This document shows, piece after piece, positions 30,074 to 54,800 of a stretch of 64,000 nucleotides of DNA. The position numbers were made by a program, and so were the translations under genes. The DNA comes from a virus. The stretch is taken from the UHGV virus genome UHGV-1519562. One strand, given 5' to 3'. The first letter of the stretch is position 1. Every line of letters begins with the position of its first letter. Under the pieces are notes generated by a model that was not told where the DNA came from, made no database searches, and was given only the letters and a program-made list of their open reading frames with translations.

Positions 30074-30341
30074 AGACCCTAGAAAATATGAAATGCACGA
30101 TTTTTATTGTATGAATTGCGGAAAGAAGTCAATGTCAATTCCTCGATTAAGAGGACGTTTTAGAGAAGTTGGGCATAAGAAAGTTATGTATTGCCCTCAT
30201 TGTAAAGAAACTGTTAATATGGTAGAATGTAGAAACGATGAAGAAGCATATAATTTTAAACTAGATTTTGAAGAAGGTCTTTTTAAAGAAGAAGCACAAA
30301 ATAGTATTTCTTATGTAAAGGAGTTTGGTATTTATGATTAA
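30066..30341 (+). CDS. zinc-ribbon protein
   Basis: CMNCG...CPHCK pair. Confidence 0.5.
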   Translation: MSKDPRKYEMHDFYCMNCGKKSMSIPRLRGRFREVGHKKVMYCPHCKETVNMVECRNDEEAYNFKLDFEEGLFKEEAQNSISYVKEFGIYD

Positions 30342-30837
30342 TTTGCATATTCTTTGTGGTATTCCTGCTTCCGGCAAATCTACTTGGGCAAAACAACAGA
30401 ATGGTAAAATTATTTCAAGAGATGAAATCCGTAAGAATTATGTAGGCGAAAATCCTGGAAAAAATTATTTTAGTAAAGAAAAACAAGTATATAAAGAAAT
30501 GATTACAAATATTAAAATTGCAATCAAAGAAAATATAAAAAATATTTATATAGATGCAACTCATATTGATGTTTCTTCAAGAGCTAAACTTTTAAACAAT
30601 TTTTTTAATCTAAAAGATAAGAATAATATTAATCTTACTTTTGATTATTTTCCTATTCTTTTAGATGTTGCTTTAAAAAGAAATTCTGAAAGAGAAGGTT
30701 TTGCTAAAGTCCCAGAAGAAGCAATAAAAAATTTTTATTTTAAATCTTCTATTCCTTCTAAGGATGAGATGAATAAATATCTTGATTGGGGTTTTCATAA
30801 TGTGAATACTATTTTGCATTATACTGAGGAGGTGTAA
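30334..30837 (+). CDS. P-loop polynucleotide-kinase-like protein (Pnk-type AAA kinase)
   Basis: Walker A GIPASGKST followed by RDEIR, as in T4 Pnkp-type kinase domains. Confidence 0.55.
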   Translation: MINLHILCGIPASGKSTWAKQQNGKIISRDEIRKNYVGENPGKNYFSKEKQVYKEMITNIKIAIKENIKNIYIDATHIDVSSRAKLLNNFFNLKDKNNINLTFDYFPILLDVALKRNSEREGFAKVPEEAIKNFYFKSSIPSKDEMNKYLDWGFHNVNTILHYTEEV

Positions 30838-31991: not shown

Positions 31992-32044
31992 TTATTTTAT
32001 TTATTTTTTAATCTAATAAAGAAAGATAATTTATTTTATCTTAT

Positions 32045-33316
32045 TTGAACAATAGGAGAGTGGAAATTATTATTAAATTCTACGATACTTGTAGTCTTTT
32101 ATTAGCCGGAGAATCAGCTTTTGAAGATAATGAAAAATTTATCATTTCTTCTATTACTTTAAAAGAGTTAGAAAGAATTAAAACTGCGGCAAATAAAGAT
32201 TCTGATATAAAATATTCCGCAAGACTTTTGCTTCATTTATTTGAAAAATATCCAAATAATTATTCTGTTAAAATTCATCAAACAAATTATGAATACATTT
32301 TAGATAAAATGAATTTTGATATTAATGATGATGCTAGAATTTTGTCTGATGCTTGGAATGAGTTTGAAACAAATAAATGTTTAGAATTTATAACTAATGA
32401 TTTAAGTTTAAAACATATTGCTTTATGTTTGTTTCCCAAAGAAAATGTTTCTTCTATTGAAGAAGATTTAGATACTTATAGTGGAATTGCAGAAATTACT
32501 GCTAATGAAGAATTAATTTCTGAATTTTATGAAAATCCTAACCATAATCATTTTAATCTTAAAAAAGGAGAATATCTACTTTTAAAAAATCCTGATAATT
32601 TTGATGAACTTATAGATGTGCGGGTTTGGACAGGAGAAACTTATCGTTATTTAAAATTTCCTACTTTTGATTCTACCTGGTTTGGAAAAGTACAACCATA
32701 TCAAGGAGATATATATCAAAAATGTGCTTTTGATAGTTTAGCTAATAATAAAATTACTTTGCTACAAGGCCCAGCAGGAGTAGGAAAATCTTACATTTCT
32801 CTAGCTTTTTTAATGTATATGTTAGAAAAAAATAGAATAGATAAAATTATAATCTTTTGTAATACAGTGGCAACTATTAATTCCGCTAAATTAGGGTTTT
32901 ACCCAGGTACAAAAGACGATAAATTACTTGACTCGCAAATTGGAAATATGCTTTCCGCCAAATTGGGTGGTAAAGAAGGTGTTCTTCGTATGATGGAAGA
33001 AGATAAATTAGTTTTATTGCCTTTTAGCGATATTAGAGGTTATGATACTAGCGGAATGAACGCAGGTATTTATATAACAGAAGCACAAAATTTAGACAGA
33101 ACTTTAATTAAATTAGCTCTTCAACGTATTGGTGAAGATTGTATTTGTATTATTGATGGTGATGCTAAAACGCAAGTTGACTCATTAGCTTATTCTGGTA
33201 ATAATAATGGTATGAGAAGAATGTCTAAAATTTTTAGAGGTTCTGATATTTATGGAGAAGTAACTTTAAATAATATTCATAGATCTAAAATAGCAGAACT
33301 TGCAGAATTAATTTAA
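32045..33316 (+). CDS. PhoH-like ATPase with N-terminal PIN-like domain
   Basis: Walker A GPAGVGKS and KLGFYPGT matching the PhoH signature; N-terminal YDTCSLL acidic motif. Confidence 0.65.
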   Translation: MNNRRVEIIIKFYDTCSLLLAGESAFEDNEKFIISSITLKELERIKTAANKDSDIKYSARLLLHLFEKYPNNYSVKIHQTNYEYILDKMNFDINDDARILSDAWNEFETNKCLEFITNDLSLKHIALCLFPKENVSSIEEDLDTYSGIAEITANEELISEFYENPNHNHFNLKKGEYLLLKNPDNFDELIDVRVWTGETYRYLKFPTFDSTWFGKVQPYQGDIYQKCAFDSLANNKITLLQGPAGVGKSYISLAFLMYMLEKNRIDKIIIFCNTVATINSAKLGFYPGTKDDKLLDSQIGNMLSAKLGGKEGVLRMMEEDKLVLLPFSDIRGYDTSGMNAGIYITEAQNLDRTLIKLALQRIGEDCICIIDGDAKTQVDSLAYSGNNNGMRRMSKIFRGSDIYGEVTLNNIHRSKIAELAELI

Positions 33317-42978: not shown

Positions 42979-43009
42979 AAATTATTTTATTTAAAAAGGA
43001 GATTGTTTT

Positions 43010-43981
43010 ATGGGTTTGCTTGATATTAAGCCGCATGAAGTTTCAAGAGATTTGCGAGGATACTCAGTTCTTTTCTACGGAGCGCCTAAGAGTGGTAAGA
43101 CAACAGTTGCTTCTAGATTTCCAGGCTCACTTTTATTAGCTTTCGAGAAAGGCTACAATGCATTGCCTGGTGTTTACGCCCAGCCCATTAATTCTTGGGG
43201 TGAGTTTAAGAAAACTTTGCAGGAATTAAAAAATCCTGAAGTGCAGGAAAAGTTTTCAACTATTGTAATTGATACAGCAGATATTGCTTATAGTTATTGT
43301 GAGCGTTATATCTGTAGTCGTGAAGGTGTAGATACAATTGCTGATCTTGCATACGGCAAGGGCTATGCAATGGTTGGTAATGAATTTGATGAATCTATCA
43401 GAAAGATTTTACAGCTAAATTATGGTCTTGTCCTTATTTCTCATGCCACAGACAAAGTCTTTAAGGATGAATCGGGAACAGAATTTAATCAGATTGTTCC
43501 TACTCTTGATAAGAGAGGCCGCTTGATTTGTGAAAGAACTTGTGATATTATTGGTTATTCTACTGCTGTGAATACAGAAGATGGAGTTAAAACTCGTTTG
43601 TATATGAGAGGTACTCCTAGATTTGTTGCAGGTAGTCGATTTGCTTATATTCCTGATTATATTAATTTCAGTTATGATAATCTAGTAAATGCTATTGCTG
43701 AAGCTATTGATAAGCAGTCTCAGCAAACAAATGGTCAATATATTACAGATAAACCTACACAGGTTGTTTCTAAGGATACTGAATATGATTTTGATGGTTT
43801 GATGAATGAGTTTCAGGATTTGGTTGGACAGTTGATGTCTAGCAATCAAACAAATGCAGTTAAGATTACCGCAATTACTGATAAGTATTTGGGTAAGGGT
43901 AAGAAAGTCGGCGAATGTACTCCTGATCAGTCTGAACAGTTGGATTTGATTGTACATGATTTGAAAGATTTAATGAATTAA
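43010..43981 (+). CDS. RecA-fold ATPase (AAA_24 / Sak4-like recombination protein candidate)
   Basis: Walker A GAPKSGKTT, Walker B IVIDTAD. Confidence 0.55.
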   Translation: MGLLDIKPHEVSRDLRGYSVLFYGAPKSGKTTVASRFPGSLLLAFEKGYNALPGVYAQPINSWGEFKKTLQELKNPEVQEKFSTIVIDTADIAYSYCERYICSREGVDTIADLAYGKGYAMVGNEFDESIRKILQLNYGLVLISHATDKVFKDESGTEFNQIVPTLDKRGRLICERTCDIIGYSTAVNTEDGVKTRLYMRGTPRFVAGSRFAYIPDYINFSYDNLVNAIAEAIDKQSQQTNGQYITDKPTQVVSKDTEYDFDGLMNEFQDLVGQLMSSNQTNAVKITAITDKYLGKGKKVGECTPDQSEQLDLIVHDLKDLMN

Positions 43982-44048: not shown

Positions 44049-44601
44049 ATTAAAAAAGGAAGTGATAAAAATTGCACATAAAGTAAAATGTTTTGTGTGC
44101 GGAAGTACATTTGACCGAGACAAAGAAGAATGTATACCAATTCCTAATAAAAGAAGATATGCACATAAGTTATGTTATGAAAGATATAGTCAAAATATTG
44201 CAGAAGAAGAAAAAAACCGGATTGCTTTAGAAGAATATATTAAACAACTTTTTAATTATGATATAATTCCTAAAGTAGTTTATAAACAAATTAAAGACTA
44301 TGTAAATGAAAATCATTATACTTATTCTGGTATTTTAAAAACTTTAAAATATCATTTTGAAGTAAAAGGTGGAGATTTAGGAAAGGCTCAAGGCAGAATT
44401 GGAATTGTCCCTTATCAGTATGAAAATGCTAGAAATTATTATTATACAATTTGGGAAAATCAGCAAAGAAATGAAAATAAAGAAATAGAAAATTTTATTC
44501 TGCCTACAGAAGAAATTCATATCACTCCCCCTAAAACAAGAGAGCCAATGAGAAAAAGGAAAAGATTTTTTACTTTTTTGGAGGAAGATATGAATGAGTA
44601 A
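44020..44601 (+). CDS. zinc-finger protein; start codon uncertain (no in-frame ATG near RBS)
   Basis: CFVCG...HKLCYERY motif. Confidence 0.45.
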   Translation: MTFVQIYVIILKKEVIKIAHKVKCFVCGSTFDRDKEECIPIPNKRRYAHKLCYERYSQNIAEEEKNRIALEEYIKQLFNYDIIPKVVYKQIKDYVNENHYTYSGILKTLKYHFEVKGGDLGKAQGRIGIVPYQYENARNYYYTIWENQQRNENKEIENFILPTEEIHITPPKTREPMRKRKRFFTFLEEDMNE

Positions 44602-46123
44602 ATATATAGATTTAACAGCGGTAGCTCAAGTTATTGGTTGTGTTTTTAATGATAATTCAATTTTAGATGCACCTGATGAATTTCCTATTTTTGAAGAAGA
44701 TTTTACAGAAGAAGTTCATAAAATCATTTTTGGGTCTATGTACAATATACATGAAGCAAAATCGGCAATTACTTTAGATACTATTGTTGATTATTTGGCA
44801 GTTAGACCCAAATATGAAGCTGTGTTTAAAGCAAATGGTGGTTTAGAGTATGTAACTAAAGCCGCAGAATTAGCTACTAGAGATACTTTTAAATATTATT
44901 ATAGTCGATTAAAAAAATTTACTTTATTAAGAGCTTATGATAAATTTGGAGTAGATGTTTCTTTTTTATATGATACTAATAATATTTTAGATTTAAAAAA
45001 GAAACAAAAGCAAGAAGACTGGTTAGATTCTACTTCTCTTGTTGAAATAGCTGATATTATTGATAAACGAATTGATGATATTAAAGTTAAGTATATTGAC
45101 AATAATGTAATTGGAGGATACCAAGCAGGAGAAGGAATTTTAGAATTAATTGAAAATTTTAAAAAGAATCCTGAGGTTGGTGCTCCACTTTATGGAAGAT
45201 TGGTTAATACTGTTACTAGAGGTGCAAGACTTAGAAAATTATATCTTAGATCTGCTGCTACTGGTGCAGGTAAAACTAGAGCTTTAATTGCAGATGCTTG
45301 TAATTTTGCTTGTAATAAAATTTATGATACTAATTTTGGTATGTGGATTAAAAATGGAGCTTCTTTACCAACTTTATTTATTGGTACTGAGCAAGATAAA
45401 GAAGAAATTCAAACTATGATGCTGGCTTTTCTTTCTGCGGTAAATGAAGACCATATTCTTAGAGGTGAATACAAAGCAGGAGAAGAAGAACGAGTTATTG
45501 AAGCAGGAAAGATTTTATCTGAATCACCTATTTGGGTAGAATTATTGCCTGATTATTCTTTAATGGATGTAGAGAATACTGTTAAAAGAAATATCAGAGA
45601 ACATGATATAGCTTATGTTTGTTTCGACTACATTCAAAGTACAATGAAGATTCTTGAAGAAGTTACAAGACGAAGTGGTGGAGTAAGATTAAGAGAAGAT
45701 AATATTCTTTTTATGTTAAGTGTTAGACTTAAAGATATTTGTAATGAGTATGGTATTTTTCTTATTACTGCAACACAGCTTTCAGGTGATTTTCGCAATA
45801 CTGATACTCCTGACCAAAGTTTGTTAAGAGGTGCAAAAAGCTTAGCAGATAAGGTAGATATAGGTGAAATTATTTTGGATGTAACAGAAGAGGATTTAGA
45901 AACATTAAAGCCAATTTTATCTACAAATAATTTTCAAATTCCTGATAAAAAGATTTCAGTTTATAAAAACAGAAGAGGTTCTTACAAAGGAGTTTATTTA
46001 TGGTGTGCTTCTGATTTAGGTATTTGTAGAATTCAGCCGCAATTTGTTACAAAATGGAACTATGATTTAGTCCCTATTGAAGATATAAAAATTATTATGG
46101 AAGATGAACCTTCCGCATTTTAA
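44594..46123 (+). CDS. DnaB-like replicative helicase
   Basis: Walker A SAATGAGKT and FDYIQS segment typical of DnaB C-terminal domain. Confidence 0.65.
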   Translation: MSKYIDLTAVAQVIGCVFNDNSILDAPDEFPIFEEDFTEEVHKIIFGSMYNIHEAKSAITLDTIVDYLAVRPKYEAVFKANGGLEYVTKAAELATRDTFKYYYSRLKKFTLLRAYDKFGVDVSFLYDTNNILDLKKKQKQEDWLDSTSLVEIADIIDKRIDDIKVKYIDNNVIGGYQAGEGILELIENFKKNPEVGAPLYGRLVNTVTRGARLRKLYLRSAATGAGKTRALIADACNFACNKIYDTNFGMWIKNGASLPTLFIGTEQDKEEIQTMMLAFLSAVNEDHILRGEYKAGEEERVIEAGKILSESPIWVELLPDYSLMDVENTVKRNIREHDIAYVCFDYIQSTMKILEEVTRRSGGVRLREDNILFMLSVRLKDICNEYGIFLITATQLSGDFRNTDTPDQSLLRGAKSLADKVDIGEIILDVTEEDLETLKPILSTNNFQIPDKKISVYKNRRGSYKGVYLWCASDLGICRIQPQFVTKWNYDLVPIEDIKIIMEDEPSAF

Positions 46124-46346: not shown

Positions 46347-47444
46347 ATGGCCGGTTATTACAATAAAGATTCTCTAAAAGAACAGCTAGATTTAGAAAAT
46401 ATTTATGATTTAGTCGCGGAACTAGGAGGAGAACCAGAATATGTAGAAACTGGACTTATTTCGCAGACTATTTGTCATAATTATCCAGGTGAAGGTTCCA
46501 GAAAATTATATTATTATCAAAATTCTCATTTGTTTAAATGTTTCACAGATTGTGATTCTACTTTTGATATTTTTGAATTAGTAATTAAAGCTATGAAAAT
46601 TCAAAAAGGTTATGAATGGGAATTATATGATGCAATGGTTTATGTTGCTAGTTATTTTGGTTTGGGAGAAGCGGAACGCCCAAACCAAAATAACAATTCT
46701 GAGCAATGGGTAGTTTTTAAAAGACATGATTTTTCATTGCCTTCTTTAAAACAAAATCCAATTTTAAAAGAATATAATCCAAAAATTTTAGAGAATTTTT
46801 CTTATCCAAGAATTTTTGATTGGGAACAAGAAGGAATTTCACATCAAATTAATTTAAAAAATTTAATTGGTTATTTTCCAGCAGGAGAACAAATAACAAT
46901 TCCGCATTTCGATATAAATAATAGATTAATTGGAATTAGAGGTAGAGCTTTAATTCAAGAAAATGCAGAGAGATTTGGTAAATACAGACCTCTGCAAATT
47001 AATAATATTATATATAGTCATCCTTTAAGTATGAATTTATATAATTTAAACAATAGTAAAGAAAATATTAAAGCTAGTAAGACCGCAATTATTTTTGAAT
47101 CTGAAAAAAGCACTCTTCAATTACAAACTTTTTATGGCTTTGAAAATAATATTTCAGTAGCATGTTGCGGTAGTAATATTTCAAGCTACCAAATATATTT
47201 ATTAGAAAAATTAGGGGTAAAGGAAATTATCATTGCTTTTGATAGACAGTTTAAAGAAATAGGTGATAATGAATTTCAAAGATTAAAAAATAAATTAATT
47301 AATTTAAATAGAAAATATGGAAATTTAATTCAGATAACAGCAATTTTTGATAAAAATATGATTACTCCTTATAAATCTAGTCCAAGTGATATGGGGAGGG
47401 AAATATTTGAAAAATTATTATCTGAAAGAATTATTCCAAAATAA
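46347..47444 (+). CDS. DnaG-like primase (zinc-binding plus Toprim)
   Basis: CHNYPG...KCFTDCDS zinc motif; Toprim-like IIFESEKS and IIAFDRQ. Confidence 0.6.
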   Translation: MAGYYNKDSLKEQLDLENIYDLVAELGGEPEYVETGLISQTICHNYPGEGSRKLYYYQNSHLFKCFTDCDSTFDIFELVIKAMKIQKGYEWELYDAMVYVASYFGLGEAERPNQNNNSEQWVVFKRHDFSLPSLKQNPILKEYNPKILENFSYPRIFDWEQEGISHQINLKNLIGYFPAGEQITIPHFDINNRLIGIRGRALIQENAERFGKYRPLQINNIIYSHPLSMNLYNLNNSKENIKASKTAIIFESEKSTLQLQTFYGFENNISVACCGSNISSYQIYLLEKLGVKEIIIAFDRQFKEIGDNEFQRLKNKLINLNRKYGNLIQITAIFDKNMITPYKSSPSDMGREIFEKLLSERIIPK

Positions 47445-47481
47445 AATAGTGGTGATCTCCGCATGAAAGGAGATTAACACT

Positions 47482-49218
47482 ATGAACTATAAATTAATTA
47501 ATCCTATTGATTCAAATAAATCAATAGTGGAACAAATTTTAAACAACAGAGGGATTCAAGATATACAAACCTATTTGAATCCAAATGATTCTGTTATTTA
47601 TAATCCAAATTTAATAAATAATATGCAGCAAGGAGTAGAAATGCTTTTTCGTCACTTAGGAAAAGATTTAATTTATTTAATTGTAGATGATGATGATGAT
47701 GGATTTACTTCTGCTGCTATTTTTTTAAATTATTTATATAAAATTGTTCCATCAATAGTAGAAGCAAATATTATTTATGATTTTCACCCGCATAAAGCTC
47801 ATGGTATTTGGCTAGACCAAATTCCGCAAGAAACTAAATTGGTTATAGCTTTAGATTCTAGCAGTAATGAGTATGATATACATGAACAATTATCCAATAA
47901 AGGAATTGATGTTTTAGTAATTGACCACCATAAAGCAGATAAAGTTAGTCCTTTTGCTTGTGTGATAAATAATCAACTTTGCGATTATCCAACTAAATCA
48001 TTATCTGGCGCAGGTATGGTCTATAAATTTTGTAAATATATTGATAATTTACTTAATTTAAATTACGCAGATGATTTTCTTGATTTAGTATCTCTTGGTT
48101 TGACAGGAGATGTTATGAGTTTAAGAGATTTAGAAACATCTTATTTAACTAGAAAAGGATTAGAAAATATTCAAAATCCTTTTATGCGAGAGATGGTAGA
48201 AAAAAATAGTTATCAATTAGGTACTGATATTACATCCATAGGAGTTGCTTTTTATATTGTACCTTATATTAATGCGGTTGCTAGATTGGGGACAAAAGAA
48301 GAAAAGAAAATATTATTTGAAGCAATGCTTGATTGGAAAGCTTTAAATCAAATTCCTTCTACTAAACGAGGATGCAAAGGACAAATGGAAGCAATTGTTA
48401 CTCAGGCAGCTAGAATGAGTAATAATATTAAAAATCGTCAAAATAAAATTAGAGATGAAAACATTGAGATTATTAGTAATCAAATTGAAGAAAAAGATTT
48501 ATTAAAAAATAAAATTTTAATAATTCAATCAACTCCAGAAGAACCGATTAATAGATCTATTTCTGGATTAATCGCAAATCGGCTAGTTTCAGAGTATCAG
48601 CGTCCTGTTATTATTTTAAATGAATATAATATAGACAATGAAATAACTTGGGAAGGTTCCGCAAGAGGATACGAAAAATCTCAGTTAAAAGATTTACAAA
48701 CTTTTGAACAAAAATCTAATTTAATTAATTGGGCGCAAGGACACGCTAATGCTCATGGTCTATCTATTTCAGATGAAAATTTATCGAAATTTATAGATTA
48801 TTGCAATCAAGAATTAAAAAATGTGGAATTTACTCCTGATTATAGAGTAGATTTTATATGGCAATATTCTGATATTTTGGCTAAAAATATTTTAGATATT
48901 GGTAATTTAAAACATCTTTGGGGAAAAGACGTAGAAGAAGCTTTGATAGTTATAAAAGGAATTCGAGTAACTGCAAATAATCTTCATCTTATGGCGAAAG
49001 ATAGAAATCCTACATTAAAAATTGATTTAAAAGATAATATAAAAGCAATTAAGTTTAAATCAGGAGAAGAAGAATATAATAACTTATATACTAAACAAGG
49101 TTGTGTAATTATTGATATTCTTTGTAAATGTGAGATAAATGAATATTGCGGGAACATTAATCCGCAATTAATTATTCAAGATTATGAAATTGTATCTCAC
49201 CAAGATTATTTCTTTTGA
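47482..49218 (+). CDS. DHH-family phosphoesterase (RecJ-like exonuclease candidate)
   Basis: DDDDDG and VIDHHK motifs. Confidence 0.65.
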   Translation: MNYKLINPIDSNKSIVEQILNNRGIQDIQTYLNPNDSVIYNPNLINNMQQGVEMLFRHLGKDLIYLIVDDDDDGFTSAAIFLNYLYKIVPSIVEANIIYDFHPHKAHGIWLDQIPQETKLVIALDSSSNEYDIHEQLSNKGIDVLVIDHHKADKVSPFACVINNQLCDYPTKSLSGAGMVYKFCKYIDNLLNLNYADDFLDLVSLGLTGDVMSLRDLETSYLTRKGLENIQNPFMREMVEKNSYQLGTDITSIGVAFYIVPYINAVARLGTKEEKKILFEAMLDWKALNQIPSTKRGCKGQMEAIVTQAARMSNNIKNRQNKIRDENIEIISNQIEEKDLLKNKILIIQSTPEEPINRSISGLIANRLVSEYQRPVIILNEYNIDNEITWEGSARGYEKSQLKDLQTFEQKSNLINWAQGHANAHGLSISDENLSKFIDYCNQELKNVEFTPDYRVDFIWQYSDILAKNILDIGNLKHLWGKDVEEALIVIKGIRVTANNLHLMAKDRNPTLKIDLKDNIKAIKFKSGEEEYNNLYTKQGCVIIDILCKCEINEYCGNINPQLIIQDYEIVSHQDYFF

Positions 49219-49221
49219 TTT

Positions 49222-49290
49222 TTGAAAGTTTTAGCTGGAAGCTCATCGGCGCGGAGACGATGAATTAAAATGGAGTTTAGTAATTTTTAG
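49222..49290 (+). promoter_or_regulatory. conserved GC-rich element plus mini-ORF (MEFSNF), copy 3, upstream of helicase operon
   Basis: TTTGAAAGTTTTAGCTGGAAGCTCATCGGCGCGGAGACGATGAATTAAAATGGAGTTTAGTAATTTTT. Confidence 0.45.
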
Positions 49291-49312
49291 AGTAAATAGG
49301 AGAAAAATTAAA

Positions 49313-49549
49313 ATGGATGATATTTATAAGTTGCAGGAAGTTTTTGAAGAAAAAGATATGAAAATTAAAGAATATGTTTTTGACAGTTTGTGTTTAAGAT
49401 ATAAATACGCAAGAATGATGTTAGCTGTTTATGAAGTTAAAAATGGCCAGGAATTTGAAACACGAATGAATTTAGCGAGAAGAGATTGTTTACGTTTCTT
49501 TGATATTCTTAGAGAAAACCTTTTGGAGGATAAAAATGACTCTAACTGA
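49313..49549 (+). CDS. hypothetical protein
   Basis: 78 aa ORF behind GC-rich conserved element. Confidence 0.5.
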   Translation: MDDIYKLQEVFEEKDMKIKEYVFDSLCLRYKYARMMLAVYEVKNGQEFETRMNLARRDCLRFFDILRENLLEDKNDSN

Positions 49550-51779
49550 TAAACAATACCAAGGATTGCAGATTGCAGTACAAAGATATAGATCTAAAGA
49601 ACCATATACTGTAGTTTCGGGATACGCTGGAACAGGAAAAGCTCAACCCATAGATACTCTTGTTCCCACTCCTACTGGATGGAGAAAATTGGGTGAACTT
49701 AAAATTGGCGATTATGTTTATGATAGAACAGGACAACCCACAAAAATTTTAGGTGTTTTTCCACAGGGCAAAAAACAAGTTTATACTATTTGTTTAAAAG
49801 ATGGTAGAAAAAGTAAATGTGCAGGAGATCACCTATGGACAGTTTTAAATAAGAAAAATCAAGAGCAAACATTAACTACAGAAGAACTTTTAAAAAAAGG
49901 GCTAACTAATAGTGCGGGATTTAAATACGCAGTGCCAAATAATTCTCCTGTTGAGTATCCTCAAATTAATTATTCTATTGATCCATATGTTATTGGAGCT
50001 TTTTTGGGAGACGGATGTTGTAAACAAAGGCAATTAACTCTTTCTTCTGAAAATGAAGAGATACCAAATATAGTAAAAAAATTAATTGGAGCAAAAGAAG
50101 TATGCAGAAATTCTTCACAAAATTATAATTGGACTTTTACTTTTGAAGAGCCTGTAACCAATATTGATAATCCAGCTTATTCTATTTTAAAATTTCAAAC
50201 GAATACTTTTTTTGTAGATTACCAAAAAGAACTTTGTTGCGCAGCTCAAGAAAAAAGTATCCCTGATATTTATAAAAGAGGTTCTATCCAACAACGATTA
50301 GATTTACTTCAAGGGTTATTTGATACAGATGGTTCAATCATTGATAGTGAAAAACGATTTAATGTTCGTTTTACTTCAACCAGTTATCATTTAATTTTAG
50401 ATGTACAAGAAGTTCTTTGGTCTTTAGGTTATAGTTCAACTATTATAAAGGATAAAAGAAGTGAAAAATATACAACTGGTATTTGTTATAATTTAAATGT
50501 TAATATTCCTAATGAAGAAAAATTTAAACTTTTTAGATTACAAAGAAAAAAAGAAATTGCTTATGAAGCTCAAAATTATATTAAACATAAAAATTATACA
50601 AAAAATTCTATCGTAGATATTTTTAAAGAATCACATGAAACAGAAATGGTTTGCATTTATGTTGACAACTCAGAACATTTGTATTTAACAAATGATTATA
50701 TTGTTACTCATAATACAACTTTAGTTAATTTTATTATTGATGCTCTAAATTTAGACAAAGAAAATGATGTAGCTTTTATTGCTTATACAGGTAAAGCCGC
50801 TAAAGTTTTAAAATCAAAAGGTAATAAAAATGCAATGACTGCTCATAAGTTACTTTATAAAGCTGTAAAAAATCCTAATGGAACATATAGATTTTATCCT
50901 AAATTGACTATTGATGATTATAAACTTATTGTGGTGGATGAAGTTTCCATGTTACCTAAAAAAATGTGGGAACTTCTTCTCTCCCATCATATTCCTGTTC
51001 TAGCAACTGGCGACCCCGGCCAATTACCTGCTTTAACAGAAGGAACAGATATTCTAAATAATCCACATGTTTTTCTTGATGAGATTATGCGACAAGCGCA
51101 AGAAAGTGAAATTATTAGATTAAGCATGGATATTAGAAATGGAAAACTTATTAAACCTTTTAAAGGAAAAGAGGTAAATGTAGTTTGTGCTTCTAATTTA
51201 AATCAAGGTATGTTAGCTTGGGCAGATCAGATTATTTGTGCTAAAAATGACACTAGATATTACTTAAATGATGTTTGTCGTAAATTATTCTGGGGTGTTG
51301 ATTCTGGCGCTCTTCCTGTTGTTGGAGATAAAATTATTTGTCTGCATAATGATTGGAAAAAGTTAAATTCTTTAGAAGATCCACTCATTAATGGTGCAAT
51401 TGGAACTATTAAAAATTATAAAGTTTTATATGATAAAAATTTAAAAGATAATATTCTTAAATTAGATTTTATGCCAGAAGAATACGATGATGAAAATTTT
51501 TTAGGGTTATTTTCTATGAATAATGTAGATTATAATCAATTAGTAAATCATACCCCAAGTGTTACTCAAGATAATTATTATCTTTTACCTAAGAATTATA
51601 AGCTTCAAAGTTTTGATTATGGTTATGCAATTACTTGCTGGAAAGCACAAGGCAGCGAATATCAAAAGGTATTGGGTATTGAAGAAAACTTTCCTTTTAA
51701 ACAAGAGGAGCATAAAAGATATTTATATACTTTAGTGACTCGTGCATCTGAAAAACTTACTCTTGTTTTAAAAAATTAA
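49536..51779 (+). CDS. Dda/RecD-like SF1 helicase interrupted by an intein in the Walker A motif
   Basis: GYAGTGK | intein | TTLVNF restores GTGKTT; downstream VVDEVSM and GDPGQLP. Confidence 0.75.
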   Translation: MTLTDKQYQGLQIAVQRYRSKEPYTVVSGYAGTGKAQPIDTLVPTPTGWRKLGELKIGDYVYDRTGQPTKILGVFPQGKKQVYTICLKDGRKSKCAGDHLWTVLNKKNQEQTLTTEELLKKGLTNSAGFKYAVPNNSPVEYPQINYSIDPYVIGAFLGDGCCKQRQLTLSSENEEIPNIVKKLIGAKEVCRNSSQNYNWTFTFEEPVTNIDNPAYSILKFQTNTFFVDYQKELCCAAQEKSIPDIYKRGSIQQRLDLLQGLFDTDGSIIDSEKRFNVRFTSTSYHLILDVQEVLWSLGYSSTIIKDKRSEKYTTGICYNLNVNIPNEEKFKLFRLQRKKEIAYEAQNYIKHKNYTKNSIVDIFKESHETEMVCIYVDNSEHLYLTNDYIVTHNTTLVNFIIDALNLDKENDVAFIAYTGKAAKVLKSKGNKNAMTAHKLLYKAVKNPNGTYRFYPKLTIDDYKLIVVDEVSMLPKKMWELLLSHHIPVLATGDPGQLPALTEGTDILNNPHVFLDEIMRQAQESEIIRLSMDIRNGKLIKPFKGKEVNVVCASNLNQGMLAWADQIICAKNDTRYYLNDVCRKLFWGVDSGALPVVGDKIICLHNDWKKLNSLEDPLINGAIGTIKNYKVLYDKNLKDNILKLDFMPEEYDDENFLGLFSMNNVDYNQLVNHTPSVTQDNYYLLPKNYKLQSFDYGYAITCWKAQGSEYQKVLGIEENFPFKQEEHKRYLYTLVTRASEKLTLVLKN
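49641..50714 (+). mobile_element. intein (358 aa) with LAGLIDADG homing-endonuclease domain
   Basis: starts with Ala after GTGK, ends IVTHN followed by Thr; LAGLIDADG-type motifs IGAFLGDGC and LLQGLFDTDGSI. Confidence 0.7.
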
Positions 51780-51820
51780 AAAAATATGTTATAATATAAT
51801 AAGAAAGGTGTGATAATCTG

Positions 51821-54800
51821 TTGAAATTCCCAGGTAGTGTACATAATCACTCGGAGTTCAGTAATATTCGTCTGCGCGATTGTATCATAAAAGTAGAAAA
51901 TTTAATTGATACAGCTGTTTCTTTGGGGCATAAAGTATTAGCTATTACTGACCATGATTGTTTATCAGGACATTTATCTGCCTTATCTTATTATGAAAAG
52001 ATTAAAAAAGATAATCCTGATTTTAAACTAATTTTAGGTAATGAGATTTATCTTTGTCGAAATGGATTAAATCAAGATAATTTTATCTCAGGAGAAGATA
52101 GTTATTATCATTTTATTTTATTGGCAAAAGATAAAGAAGGCCATAAACAACTTAGAGAAATTTCTACACGGGCATGGCTAAGAAGTTATAAAACAGGTAA
52201 AATGCGAAGAGTTCCTACTTATTATCAAGATTTAATTGATATTATTGATAATAATAAGGGTCATCTTATTGCATCAAGCGCTTGTTTGGGCGGTTTTCTA
52301 TCTTCAGAATGTTTAAAGTTAGCCGAAAACCCAGATGAAGAAAGAAAAAATCATCTTATTAAATGGTGTAAATCAATGGTAAAATTATTTGGAGAAGGTA
52401 ATTTTTATATTGAATTGCAGCCACCTGAGAAAAAAGATAATGAACAATATTTAGCCAATCAGCAGTTACTAAAAATTGCAAAAGAATTAAATATTCCTTG
52501 GATTGTAACTACAGATTCACATTATGCTCGATTAGAAGATCGACCGATTCATAAAGCTTATCTTAATTCTCAAGATGGTGAGAGAGAAGTTGATGCTTTT
52601 TATGCTACAACTTATATGATGACGACAGAAGAGCTTGAATCTTATTTTGATTTTTCTCTTGATGAAGCATATAAAAATATTGATTATATTGCTTCGCAGT
52701 GTGAAGATTATGATTTGCGAAAGTCTCTAAAAATTCCACAATTACCTTGGAAAACTTTTAATCCAAAAAGTAATTTATATGATTGGATAAATGATATTCC
52801 TCTTTTGAAGGAATTTATTGAATCTGATTATATTGGCGATGTAGAATTAGCTAAAGCTATTGTTGAACGATTAGAAAAAGATGAAACTTTAAGAAATCAA
52901 AAAACTTATGAAGCAATTAATGATTGTTTAGATAAAACTTGGGAATCATCAATAGTAAATAAAACTCATTGGAGTGCCTATTATTTAAATCTTCAAAAAA
53001 TTATTGATTGCTGTTGGGAAGCTGGCAGTTTAGTAGGGCCTGGTCGTGGTTCAGGCGTTGGTTTTATTTTGTTATATCTTTTAGATATAACGCAAATTAA
53101 TCCTTTGCGAGAAACTGTTCAAACTTTTAGTTGGAGATTTCTTAATCCTAGTCGAGTTTCTGTTTTGGATGTGGATGTAGATATTGAAGGATCTAAAAGA
53201 GCGCAAGTTCTTTCTCACCTAAGAGAAGTTTATGGTGAAGATAGAGTTGCGAATGTTATTACTTTTGGTAAAGAAACTTCTAAGAGTGCTATTTTAACAG
53301 CTTGTAGAGGTTTAGGCATTGATGTAGATGAAGCTCAATATATTGCATCTCTTATTCCCGCAGATAGAGGATTAATTCGCACTTTATCTCAATGTTATTA
53401 TGGTGATAAGGAAAATGGTTATCCTGTTATTAGACCTTTTGTTGATAAAATGAAAGAATATCCTGAATTGTGGGATGTAGCTCATAAAATTGAAGGTTTG
53501 ATTTGTCGTTCTGGTATTCATGCAGGCGGAGTTATTTTTGTGGATGAACCTTTTACTGAGTCTGCTTCTTTAATGCGTGCTCCTGATGGAACAATAGTAA
53601 CAGGTTATGATCTACATCGAGCTGAAGATGTAAGTCTTATTAAATACGATTTATTATCCGTTGAAGCTATGGATAAAATGCACAATTGTCTTGATCTTTT
53701 GCTCGCAGCAAATAAAATTCAAGATAAAGGTTCTTTAAGAGAAACTTATGAAGAAATTTTAGGTGTATATAACATTGAGCGCAATGATTCTGAAATGTGG
53801 AAAATGGTTAATAACCATGAAATTCAATCTTTATTCCAAATGGAAAAACAAAGTGGAATACAAGGCATTGCATTAACTCATCCTAAATCAGTTGAGGATT
53901 TAGCCCACTTAAATTCAATTATTCGATTAATGGCTCAAGAAAAAGGTGGAGAACAACCTTTAAATAAATATGCTCGCTTTAAAGCAAATATTAATCTATG
54001 GTATCAAGAAATGAAAAACTATGGATTAACTCAACAAGAGCAAGAATTACTTAAACCATATCTTTCTGGTAGTTATGGTATATGTGAGAGTCAGGAAGGA
54101 TTTATGCAGTTAGTTCAAATTCCAGAGTGCGGTGGTTTTGATTTAACTTTTGCCGATAGTTTGCGGAAAGCTATTGCAAAGAAAAATCCTGCTGCATATG
54201 ATGAACTTACCAAAAAATATTTTACAGAAGTAAAAGAAAAAAGTTTAAGTCAAAATCTTTGTAATTATGTTTGGAATGTGTTAGTTGCAACCAGTCGAGG
54301 ATACGGGTTTAATCTATCTCATACACTTGCCTACTCTATCATTGCTGTTCAAGAAATGAATTTAGCTTTTAAATTTCCTATTGTTTATTGGAATTGTGCT
54401 TGTCTTATTAATGATGCAGGTGGAGAAGATGGAAGCACTGATTATAATAAAATTGCTACTGCTTTAGGAAAAATGCAAAAAGCAAATATTAAAATTTCTC
54501 TTGTAGATATTAATAATTCACAATATAATTTTGTTCCTGATGAAAAACAGAATTTAATTTGGATGGGTTTAAAAAGTTTGCTTAATGTTGGAGATGATTT
54601 AATTAAAGATATTATTGCTAAACGTCCTTATAATTCTATGCTAGATTTTTACAATCGAGTTAGACCTAATAAACAAGCAATGATTACTTTGATTAAAGGT
54701 GGCGCTTTTGATAATTTATCTCCTAGGTATGACACAATGATTACTTATTTGTGGCTTACCTGTGATAAAAAATCAAGATTAACTTTACAGAATCTCCCAG

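What the first reader, a model, noticed from the sequence alone, without database searches (positions are those of the whole stretch)
49641..50714. Ala-1 intein with LAGLIDADG endonuclease splitting the Walker A loop of the Dda/RecD-like helicase
The host protein reads GYAGTGK | intein | TTLVNF, so splicing restores GTGKTT. The intein is 358 aa, carries two LAGLIDADG-type motifs and ends in HN followed by Thr. It begins with Ala rather than Cys or Ser, implying a non-canonical first splicing step.
Basis: partly seen in the sequence, partly recalled or inferred. Interest (0 to 1): 0.6.

Follow-up and report, generated by a model that had tools for sequence, protein, structure and literature searches.

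The report
Class 3 intein in phage helicase
A self-splicing, mobile protein insert (a class 3 intein with its own homing endonuclease) sits in the ATP-binding loop of a phage helicase; it is real and cleanly defined, but it is a textbook kind of element at its textbook insertion site.

Summary
The gene at 49536-51779 (+) encodes a 747-aa Dda/RecD-like SF1B helicase. Its Walker A loop is split as GYAGTGK | 358 aa | TTLVNF by an in-frame insert at 49641-50714.

A relative that is 92-93% identical in DNA carries the same gene without the insert. The difference is a clean 1074-nt indel, so the insert is not a native subdomain.

The insert is a bifunctional intein. The AlphaFold2 model (pLDDT 96.7) matches PI-SceI-type intein-endonucleases, and both LAGLIDADG motifs keep their catalytic Asp.

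The Ala1 is explained by the full class 3 signature: no N-terminal nucleophile, the Trp66 / Cys338 / Thr356 "WCT" triplet, His-Asn at the end, and Thr+1. These residues align with Trp67/Cys118/Thr137 of the experimentally studied M. smegmatis DnaBi1 class 3 intein. The first nucleophile is therefore most likely the internal block F Cys338.

More than 100 homologues (31-58% identical; a seventh-frame relative in locus L005 reaches 79.5%) sit at the same GK|T position in helicases, PhoH, DnaB, UvrD, RuvB, terminases and kinases. About 650 GenBank phage records hold 31-35% identical relatives.

Class 3 inteins in phage helicase P-loops are the founding example of the class, so this is a new member of a known kind. 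Splicing and cleavage remain untested.

The parts
49525..49529 (+). Shine-Dalgarno GGAGG, 6 nt upstream of the ATG start
   Evidence: Read directly from the sequence. It supports the ATG at 49536 over the upstream TTG at 49500.
49536..51779 (+). Helicase precursor gene: 747 aa plus stop, made of N-extein, intein and C-extein
   Evidence: ORF list. The same 747-aa product is called on a 130,331-bp JGI contig and on Logan contigs.
49536..49640 (+). N-extein, 35 aa, ending in the first part of Walker A, GYAGTGK (49620-49640)
   Evidence: It is colinear with the intein-free allele P0121/L003.
49641..50714 (+). Class 3 intein, 358 aa. Hint splicing domain is about residues 1-99 plus 319-358. A LAGLIDADG endonuclease domain (about residues 100-318, roughly 49938-50594) is nested inside it.
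   Evidence: This is exactly the 1074 nt missing from L003/L004.
49641..49643 (+). Ala1 (GCT), a non-nucleophilic first residue
   Evidence: Ala occupies this position in 97 of 103 family members.
49830..49838 (+). Block B His64-Leu65-Trp66. His is position B10. Trp is B12, the 'W' of the WCT triplet.
   Evidence: Aligns with His65/Trp67 of MsmDnaBi1 (6bs8) and with HLW of gp41-1_WCT. His is present in 101/103 and Trp in 97/103 family members.
49986..50018 (+). LAGLIDADG motif 1 (YVIGAFLGDGC), with the catalytic Asp124 at 50010-50012
   Evidence: Model helix 115-124. Fold match to PI-SceI and I-DmoI. Asp is present in 76/103 family members.
50304..50336 (+). LAGLIDADG motif 2 (LLQGLFDTDGS), with the catalytic Asp230 at 50328-50330
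   Evidence: Pfam LAGLIDADG_3 covers residues 220-281 at E 4e-15. Model helix 216-229. Asp is present in 92/103 family members.
50652..50654 (+). Cys338, block F position 4, the 'C' of WCT. Predicted initiating nucleophile.
   Evidence: Aligns with the catalytic Cys118 of MsmDnaBi1 (role described in PMC6195587). Cys is present in 101/103 family members.
50706..50714 (+). Block G Thr356-His357-Asn358. Thr is the 'T' of WCT. His is the penultimate residue. Asn is the terminal residue that cyclises.
   Evidence: Thr 101/103, His 103/103, Asn 101/103.
50715..50717 (+). Thr+1 (ACA). It is the C-extein nucleophile and also the Walker A Thr of GK[T/S].
   Evidence: Thr+1 is present in essentially all family members, whereas 106 of 120 intein-free orthologues have Ser here.
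50715..51779 (+). C-extein, 354 aa plus stop: the rest of the AAA_30/AAA_19 ATPase core and the UvrD_C_2 domain
   Evidence: Pfam and PHROG 325.

Best explanation
The region 49641-50714 encodes a full-length class 3 intein with a nested, probably active, double-motif LAGLIDADG homing endonuclease. It is inserted between Lys and Thr of the Walker A P-loop of a phage Dda/RecD-like SF1B helicase.

Inferred mechanism, following the established class 3 pathway:
1. The 747-aa precursor cannot bind ATP because its P-loop is interrupted.
2. Cys338 (block F4), activated by His64, Trp66 and Thr356, attacks the Lys(-1)-Ala1 peptide bond and forms a block F thioester branched intermediate.
3. The N-extein is transferred to the side-chain oxygen of Thr+1.
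4. Asn358 cyclises and releases the intein.
5. An O-to-N acyl shift produces the 389-aa helicase with an intact GYAGTGKTT loop.

At the DNA level, the endonuclease domain is expected to cut intein-free alleles at the P-loop codons during co-infection. Repair from the intein-bearing copy would then spread the element (homing).

Shown here: the insert, its exact boundaries, its fold, all signature residues, the presence/absence polymorphism, and purifying selection on both intein domains and on the exteins. Inferred: the chemistry, and the endonuclease activity and target.
For: - Boundaries and insertion status. P0121 is a 389-aa helicase 96% identical to the spliced product. Its loci L003/L004 match the window at 92-93% nt identity on both sides, over 1.8 kb and 2.9 kb. 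A clean 1074-nt gap falls at the K|T codon boundary.
- Fold. The AlphaFold2 model has pLDDT 96.7 and pTM 0.93. Foldseek matches the whole chain to PI-SceI, TliVMA and PI-PfuI inteins (E 1e-16 to 1e-12, TM 0.6-0.7). The Hint part matches the class 3 MsmDnaBi1 and MchDnaB1 structures and gp41-1. The middle domain matches I-DmoI.
- Class 3 signature. Ala1, His64/Trp66, Cys338, Thr356-His357-Asn358 and Thr+1 align with His65/Trp67, Cys118 and Thr137-His138-Asn139 of MsmDnaBi1 (roles from PMC6195587; class definition from PMC2807308).
- Family. 120 listed homologues, 102 with both junctions mapped. Nearly all read GK|A...H.W...C...THN|T inside a Walker A loop.
- Selection. Intein dN/dS is 0.12 overall and 0.13 for the endonuclease domain alone, measured against the homologous intein in L005. 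Extein dN/dS is 0.04 against the intein-free allele. The host gene is therefore kept functional, which requires splicing.
- Endonuclease. It keeps both catalytic Asp residues (124 and 230) and the conserved Lys205. Shortened derivatives at the same helicase site have lost these motifs but keep all splicing blocks.
Against: - No experiment was possible. Splicing, the block F branched intermediate and DNA cleavage are all inferred.
- Grafting WCT onto a class 1 intein did not give productive splicing (PMC7664689), so the triplet is diagnostic but not sufficient.
- Block B position 7 is Ala61 here, not the Asp seen in MsmDnaBi1, so details of N-junction activation may differ.
- Evidence for recent mobility is mixed. 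The intein is much more similar to the L005 copy than the exteins are (79.5% vs 48-51% aa). However, synonymous divergence is only modestly lower (pS 0.59 vs 0.65, near saturation). Stronger constraint could explain part of the difference.
- Intein GC content (28.3%) equals that of the host gene (29.1%), so there is no compositional trace of recent arrival.
Confidence: 0.9

Rival explanations
1. It is a class 2 (KlbA-like) Ala1 intein. The +1 residue attacks the N-terminal splice junction directly, with no block F intermediate.
For: It begins with Ala, as KlbA inteins do.
Against: Class 2 is defined by the absence of the WCT triplet, and its members use Cys+1 (PMC2807308). This intein has Trp66, Cys338 and Thr356 at positions B12, F4 and G5, and it has Thr+1. 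A Thr hydroxyl is a poor nucleophile for direct attack on an amide bond.
Confidence: 0.04
2. It is a splicing-dead or decaying intein. The gene would then be a helicase pseudogene, or would make only an inactive precursor.
For: Nothing was tested experimentally. Dead class 3-like inteins are known, for example Arth_1007 (PMC3196547).
Against: The 2.2-kb ORF is uninterrupted in a 30% GC genome. Every catalytic residue is intact. Extein dN/dS is 0.04 against the intein-free allele, and intein dN/dS is 0.12. The same precursor is found on four contigs.
Confidence: 0.04
3. It splices normally, but the endonuclease is no longer active. The intein would be a vertically inherited passenger and no longer mobile.
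For: Intein composition equals that of the host. Synonymous divergence from the L005 copy is nearly as high as for the exteins. Endonuclease-decayed mini-inteins at the same site show that this is the usual fate.
Against: Both catalytic Asp residues and Lys205 are retained. Endonuclease-domain dN/dS is 0.13. The intein is present or absent among genomes 92% identical in DNA. The first C-extein residues, TTLVNF, are shared with the distant L005 allele but not with the window's closest relative, which reads STLVGF. This suggests the flank was co-converted from a donor.
Confidence: 0.25
4. The insert is a native helicase subdomain or an accessory nuclease domain, not a splicing element.
For: None beyond its in-frame position.
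Against: A 96%-identical orthologue and at least 120 further orthologues of 381-402 aa lack it. The same module occurs at the same P-loop position in at least nine unrelated ATPase families. It has a Hint fold with terminal His-Asn.
Confidence: 0.01

Closest known systems
Mycobacterium smegmatis DnaBi1 and M. chimaera MchDnaB1 class 3 inteins (PDB 6bs8, 6rix; PMC6195587, PMC7664689)
   Same: Both start with Ala1. Both are inserted in a helicase P-loop directly after GK, and the +1 hydroxyl residue doubles as the Walker A Ser/Thr. The WCT triplet and His-Asn are the same. The sequence match covers blocks A-B and F-G (E 2e-8), and the Hint fold matches at about 2 Å rmsd over 84 residues.
   Different: They are mini-inteins with no endonuclease. 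Their host is the hexameric SF4 helicase DnaB, not an SF1B Dda-like helicase. Their block B has DxxH, whereas this intein has Ala at the equivalent position. They are cellular rather than phage-borne.
Mycobacteriophage Bethlehem DnaB intein, the class 3 prototype (PMC2807308)
   Same: It is phage-encoded and of similar size (341 aa). It has no N-terminal nucleophile, carries WCT, and ends THN|T. The source paper notes that class 3 inteins are typically in helicase-type proteins and mostly in the P-loop.
   Different: It starts with Pro1. Its reported flanks are VSQDQ|...|TKNTF, not GK|T. I could not align it directly, because it was not found in the part of the Bethlehem genome I fetched.
'Classic' K|T P-loop intein insertions in phage terminases and other ATPases (TerL1-a; PMC5050341, PMC4760082), and class 3 P-loop inteins spreading between unrelated proteins in Anaeramoeba (PMC10710043)
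   Same: The insertion point is identical, between the invariant Lys and the Thr of Walker A. Related inteins are shared among non-homologous P-loop proteins. The family found here includes terminase, PhoH, DnaB, UvrD, RuvB, dNK, IstB and AAA_33 hosts.
   Different: The hosts and the environment differ. This clade comes from uncultured phage contigs of about 130 kb and is only 31-35% identical to inteins in GenBank phages.
gp41-1 intein (PDB 6qaz, with WCT-grafted variant 6riz)
   Same: It is the best PDB sequence match (E 2e-13 for 6riz, 2e-10 for wild-type 6qaz). It shares the THN C-terminus and the conserved Cys four residues before the block B His.
   Different: It is class 1 (Cys1, with Phe and Asp in place of Trp and Cys). 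It is naturally split and has no endonuclease.
PI-SceI, PI-PfuI and TliVMA bifunctional inteins
   Same: The overall two-domain architecture is the same: a Hint domain with a nested double-motif LAGLIDADG endonuclease. These are the top whole-chain fold matches.
   Different: They are class 1 inteins (Cys1) from other hosts, with only 13-15% sequence identity.

Membership tests
Intein (Hint-domain protein-splicing element) | In-frame insertion in a conserved host protein that is absent from orthologues, with host sequence colinear across the site | tested here: met
   P0121 (389 aa) is 96% identical to the spliced product. L003 and L004 are colinear with the window at 92-93% nt identity, with a clean 1074-nt indel.
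Intein (Hint-domain protein-splicing element) | Hint fold with splicing blocks A, B, F and G, and a C-terminal His-Asn followed by a Cys, Ser or Thr at +1 | tested here: met
   Model pLDDT is 96.7, with Foldseek hits to intein structures. phmmer aligns blocks A/B and F/G to gp41-1 and MsmDnaBi1. The sequence ends His357-Asn358 | Thr+1. Pfam Intein_splicing scores only 21.6 bits, below its 35.8-bit cut-off.
Intein (Hint-domain protein-splicing element) | Autocatalytic excision with ligation of the exteins | not testable with these tools
   Only indirect evidence is available: extein dN/dS of 0.04 implies the host gene is still functional.
Class 3 intein | No Cys, Ser or Thr nucleophile at intein position 1 | tested here: met
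   Ala1 is encoded by GCT at 49641-49643. Ala is present in 97/103 family members.
Class 3 intein | WCT triplet: Trp at block B12, Cys at block F4, Thr at block G5 | tested here: met
   Trp66, Cys338 and Thr356 align with Trp67, Cys118 and Thr137 of MsmDnaBi1 (residue roles in PMC6195587). They are 94-98% conserved in the family.
Class 3 intein | [quoted passage not shown] | tested here: met
   Thr+1 is encoded by ACA at 50715-50717.
Class 3 intein | Obligate block F Cys forming a block F branched thioester intermediate | not testable with these tools
   This needs C338 mutagenesis and detection of the intermediate.
Class 2 (KlbA-like) intein | No N-terminal nucleophile AND no WCT triplet, with Cys+1 attacking the N-junction directly | tested here: not met
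   The WCT triplet is present and the +1 residue is Thr.
LAGLIDADG homing endonuclease (monomeric, double-motif) | Two LAGLIDADG helices, each ending in a catalytic acidic residue, in an alpha-beta-beta-alpha-beta-beta-alpha pseudo-dimeric fold | tested here: met
   The motifs are at residues 116-126 (Asp124) and 222-232 (Asp230). Pfam LAGLIDADG_3 matches at E 4e-15. Fold matches to I-DmoI, PI-SceI and I-Tsp061I.
LAGLIDADG homing endonuclease (monomeric, double-motif) | Site-specific cleavage of the intein-free allele | not testable with these tools
   Supporting but indirect evidence: endonuclease-domain dN/dS of 0.13, presence/absence polymorphism, and a cluster of substitutions at the empty site.
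SF1B Dda/RecD-like helicase (the host protein) | AAA_30/AAA_19 P-loop core plus the UvrD_C_2 C-terminal domain, with Walker A restored after splicing | tested here: met
   Pfam. PHROG 325 'Dda-like helicase' at E 7e-92 over residues 1-388 of the spliced product. Partial TIGR01448 RecD2 match below its cut-off.

The most novel reading that the evidence does not exclude
This intein may belong to a still-active clade of 'motif-homing' class 3 inteins in large, uncultured AT-rich phages. Their LAGLIDADG endonuclease would target DNA encoding the Walker A GK|T motif rather than one particular gene. That would let the clade jump repeatedly between non-homologous ATPases: Dda-like helicase, PhoH, AAA_33 kinase, DnaB, UvrD, RuvB, terminase, dNK and IstB. 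Intein-free populations would escape by carrying GK-Ser alleles. The window and its 92%-identical intein-free relative would then be a natural pair for testing non-allelic homing and target-site immunity.
Probability: 0.4. Interest if true: 0.4.

Novelty: new member of a known kind. Interest (0 to 1): 0.22.

Why it matters
For annotation, the gene should be called as one helicase precursor with an intein. The mature product is a 389-aa Dda-like helicase. Gene callers already mis-start the homologous gene inside the intein (P0079/L005).

For biology, the finding adds a full-length, endonuclease-bearing, Ala1 class 3 intein in an SF1B helicase. A naturally occurring empty-site allele is also at hand, which makes a convenient substrate pair for studying class 3 splicing and P-loop homing.

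It does not change what is known. Class 3 inteins were defined on a phage helicase intein, and the founding paper already reported that they concentrate in the P-loops of helicase-type ATPases.

Tried and rejected
- Near-identity search of 47000-53000 against GenBank phages found nothing. The window comes from an uncultured phage-like contig of 130,331 bp.
- I tried to align directly to the class 3 prototype, the Mycobacteriophage Bethlehem DnaB intein. I fetched AY500153 30000-52250, but neither tblastn with our intein nor a search for the published N-extein VSQDQ found it there. I did not fetch the first 30 kb and used MsmDnaBi1 (6bs8) as the experimental reference instead.
- Tori & Perler 2011 (PMC3133030) is not held in the library.
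- I searched for a second intein of this family in the window by running a family HMM over all six-frame ORFs of 60 aa or more. Only the helicase matched.
- I tested whether the higher intein identity to L005 (79.5% vs about 50% for the exteins) proves recent horizontal transfer. It does not on its own, because synonymous divergence is only slightly lower and is near saturation.
- I looked for a compositional signature of recent invasion and found none. Intein GC is 28.3% against 29.1% for the C-extein, and GC3 is 11% against 15%.
- The model coordinates are not exposed, so I could not measure the distance from Cys338 to the scissile bond or from Cys60 to Cys338.
Full report
**1. The observation**

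Window 49641-50714 (+) translates to 358 codons with no stop, AQPIDT...YIVTHN. At the insert's base composition (28% GC), the chance of this is about 3e-15.

The insert lies in frame inside a single ORF. The true start is the ATG at 49536, six bases after a GGAGG at 49525-49529. The upstream TTG at 49500 that the ORF lister reports is not the start.

The precursor is 747 aa and reads ...VVSGYAGTGK | AQPIDT...IVTHN | TTLVNFIIDA... Deleting the insert gives a 389-aa protein with an intact Walker A loop, GYAGTGKTT. The same 747-aa product is called on a 130,331-bp JGI metagenome contig and on Logan assemblies.

**2. The insert is an insertion, not a native domain**

The spliced 389-aa sequence finds thousands of homologues. 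The best 120 are 381-402 aa long and none carries the insert. The top hit, P0121, is 96% identical over 100% of its length.

The loci of P0121 (L003 and L004) were compared with the window:
- L003 1-1846 matches window 47797-49642 at 92.2% nt identity.
- L003 1858-4764 matches window 50729-53635 at 92.9% nt identity.
- The only structural difference in between is the 1074-nt insert. The 1170-nt gene aligns without gaps once 49641-50714 is removed.

**3. The host protein**

Pfam finds AAA_30, AAA_19 and UvrD_C_2 in the exteins. The spliced protein matches PHROG 325 'Dda-like helicase' end to end at E 7e-92. It also matches RecD2/RecD models partially, below their curated cut-offs.

The neighbouring genes form a phage replication module:
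- topoisomerase II subunits
- DnaB-like helicase
- primase
- RecJ-like DHH protein
- DnaE
- NrdD
- PhoH
- 16 tRNA genes

**4. What the insert is**

Sequence evidence:
- Pfam LAGLIDADG_3 matches at E 4e-15.
- Intein_splicing and the Hint models match only weakly, below threshold.
- NCBIfam matches fall only on the intein portions of intein-containing DnaB, GyrA, Tes and RecA models.

PDB sequence search:
- The best hits are gp41-1_WCT (6riz, E 2e-13) and wild-type gp41-1 (6qaz, E 2e-10).
- The next hits are the class 3 inteins MsmDnaBi1 (6bs8, E 2e-8) and MchDnaB1 (6rix and 6riy).
- In each case both the N-terminal (blocks A-B) and C-terminal (blocks F-G) segments align.

Structure:
- An AlphaFold2 model built on a 56-sequence alignment is very confident, with pLDDT 96.7 and pTM 0.93.
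- Foldseek matches the whole chain to the bifunctional inteins PI-SceI, TliVMA and PI-PfuI, at E 3e-16 to 1e-12 and TM 0.6-0.7.
- The Hint portion matches MsmDnaBi1, MchDnaB1 and gp41-1.
- The central domain matches the monomeric LAGLIDADG enzymes I-DmoI and I-Tsp061I.
- The two LAGLIDADG helices are at residues 115-124 and 216-229. They end in Asp124 and Asp230.

**5. Why it starts with Ala: class 3**

Class 3 inteins are defined by three features (PMC2807308, PMC5050341):
- a non-nucleophilic first residue;
- a co-varying Trp (block B12), Cys (block F4), Thr (block G5) triplet, called WCT;
- Thr or Ser at the +1 position.

In the alignment, the residues of this intein fall on those of MsmDnaBi1 as follows:

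| This intein | MsmDnaBi1 |
|---|---|
| His64 / Trp66 | His65 / Trp67 |
| Cys338 | Cys118 |
| Thr356-His357-Asn358 | Thr137-His138-Asn139 |

In MsmDnaBi1 these are the experimentally assigned catalytic residues (PMC6195587). MsmDnaBi1 and MchDnaB1 also start with Ala, directly after GK in a helicase P-loop (PMC7664689, PMC6195587).

All sequence-level criteria for class 3 are therefore met. The criteria for class 2 (KlbA), which are no WCT triplet and a Cys+1, are not met.

The most likely chemistry is as follows:
1. Cys338 attacks the Lys-Ala1 peptide bond.
2. The N-extein moves to the Thr+1 hydroxyl.
3. Asn358 cyclises and releases the intein.
4. An O-to-N acyl shift restores GKTT.

These steps are inferred from the family, not shown here.

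**6. The intein family**

The intein alone finds 141 proteins, of which 120 are listed at 31-58% identity. I mapped both junctions in 102 of them. Nearly all read GK|A(Q/L)P...H.W...C...THN|T, and in every case the N-extein ends in a Walker A loop.

The hosts, by precomputed Pfam domains, include:
- AAA_30 helicases
- PhoH (the most frequent)
- AAA_33 kinases
- DnaB_C
- UvrD
- RuvB
- terminase
- deoxynucleoside kinase
- IstB-like ATPases

Column conservation among 103 sequences:

| Residue | Count |
|---|---|
| Ala1 | 97 |
| His64 | 101 |
| Trp66 | 97 |
| Cys338 | 101 |
| Thr356 | 101 |
| His357 | 103 |
| Asn358 | 101 |
| Asp124 | 76 |
| Asp230 | 92 |

In GenBank phages, 652 records carry relatives at 31-35% identity. 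Among them are 300 mycobacteriophages, Lactobacillus phage LfeInf (where the region is annotated 'putative intein') and Lactococcus phage 949 terminase.

The literature already describes the following:
- K|T as the 'classic' P-loop insertion point (PMC5050341);
- the concentration of class 3 inteins in P-loops of helicase-type proteins (PMC2807308);
- P-loop inteins across many ATPases (PMC4760082);
- apparent transfer of class 3 inteins between P-loops of unrelated proteins (PMC10710043).

**7. Is it functional and mobile?**

*Evidence that the gene and the intein are functional*
- Extein dN/dS between the intein-bearing and intein-free alleles is 0.04 (dS 0.45). The helicase is therefore maintained, which requires splicing.
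- A second phage of about 130 kb (L005) carries the same intein at the same site. Its full ORF is 753 aa. The gene caller had truncated it to P0079.
- Between the window and L005, the intein is 79.5% identical in protein. The exteins are 48-51% identical, and the neighbouring RecJ and DnaE are 42-50% identical.
- Intein dN/dS is 0.12, and 0.13 for the endonuclease domain alone. Both activities have been under purifying selection.

*Caveats on mobility*
- Synonymous divergence of the intein is only modestly lower than that of the exteins (pS 0.59 vs 0.65, near saturation). The identity contrast alone does not prove late horizontal transfer.
- The intein's GC content equals that of its host gene.

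*Evidence for homing and co-conversion*
- 9 of the 97 nucleotide differences between the two alleles fall within 23 nt around the insertion point. This gives P = 4e-5, or 0.012 after correcting for scanning along the gene.
- 3 of the 15 amino-acid differences lie at residues 33, 36 and 40, which flank the junction.
- The window shares the C-extein start TTLVNF with the distant L005 allele. Its own close relative reads STLVGF.
- Of 120 intein-free orthologues, 106 have GK-Ser. All 18 intein-bearing helicases of this type have GK|Thr (Fisher P = 3e-14).
- This pattern fits any of three explanations: a splicing requirement for Thr+1, co-conversion of the flank, or resistance of GK-Ser alleles to cleavage. 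I cannot separate them.
- Several orthologous helicases carry shortened versions of 207-288 aa at the same site. These have deletions inside the endonuclease domain and have lost the LAGLIDADG acidic residues, but they keep all splicing blocks. This is the expected later stage of the homing cycle.

**8. Comparison, novelty and verdict**

This is a member of the class 3 inteins at the canonical P-loop K|T site. Every sequence-level and fold-level criterion was tested and met.

What is particular here:
- The host is an SF1B Dda-like helicase of an uncultured, 30% GC phage of about 130 kb.
- The LAGLIDADG domain is complete.
- A natural empty-site allele is available.

None of this departs from known biology, so I rate it a new member of a known kind with low-to-moderate interest.

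The only addition is that the 'non-canonical first step' can be assigned to the block F Cys338.

The most novel reading not excluded is that this clade's endonuclease targets the P-loop motif itself and is still hopping between unrelated ATPases in these phages. Precedents for that idea already exist.

Noticed in passing
L003:4764-5002 (corresponds to window ~53635, inside DnaE 51821-55657): In the intein-free relative, the DnaE ORF stops after residue 605 (...HRAEDVS*). The window's DnaE continues at that exact point with LIKYDLLSV, and the L003 sequence beyond it has no match in the window. Rfam gives a weak, sub-threshold group I intron hit there (RF00028, 18.7 bits, E 0.016) before the contig ends. 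The two near-identical phages seem to carry different mobile insertions: an intein in the helicase in one, and a probable intron in DnaE in the other.
   Followed up: partly
window 30319-30834, 32030-33313, 42995-43978, 44594-46120: Four other Walker A genes in the window are intein-free: an AAA_33-like kinase, PhoH, a GAPKSGKTT ATPase and a DnaB-like helicase. The same kinds of protein host this intein family in other phages. Their P-loop DNA matches the helicase homing site at only 16-17 of 36 positions.
   Followed up: partly
window 50715-50717 and orthologues P0121-P0240: The Walker A residue after Lys is Ser in 106 of 120 intein-free orthologues, but Thr in every intein-bearing helicase (Fisher P = 3e-14). 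This could reflect a splicing requirement, flank co-conversion, or endonuclease-resistant GK-Ser alleles.
   Followed up: partly
L005:2311-4572: The database protein P0079 (523 aa) is a mis-called fragment that starts at a Met inside the intein. The real ORF is 753 aa from a GTG start and contains a complete homologous intein at the same site.
   Followed up: yes
window 49818-49820 (Cys60 of the intein): A Cys four residues before the block B His is present in 100 of 103 family members and also in gp41-1. In MsmDnaBi1 a non-catalytic Cys forms a regulatory disulfide with the block F Cys, so a similar redox switch is conceivable here. I could not measure the distances.
   Followed up: no
P0063, P0099, P0101, P0103-P0105, P0114, P0118: These proteins carry shortened inteins of 207-288 aa at the same P-loop site. 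They have internal deletions in the endonuclease domain and degraded LAGLIDADG motifs, but intact splicing blocks.
   Followed up: yes
window 10234-12942 and 20167-21479: Sixteen tRNA genes lie in two clusters on the + strand. One ARAGORN call, at 12158-12230, has a four-base anticodon (tgaa) and no assigned amino acid.
   Followed up: no
window 49313-49549: A 78-aa ORF ends 14 nt after the helicase start codon, so it overlaps the helicase start. It is conserved in position in the relatives L001-L004 and has no Pfam hit.
   Followed up: no
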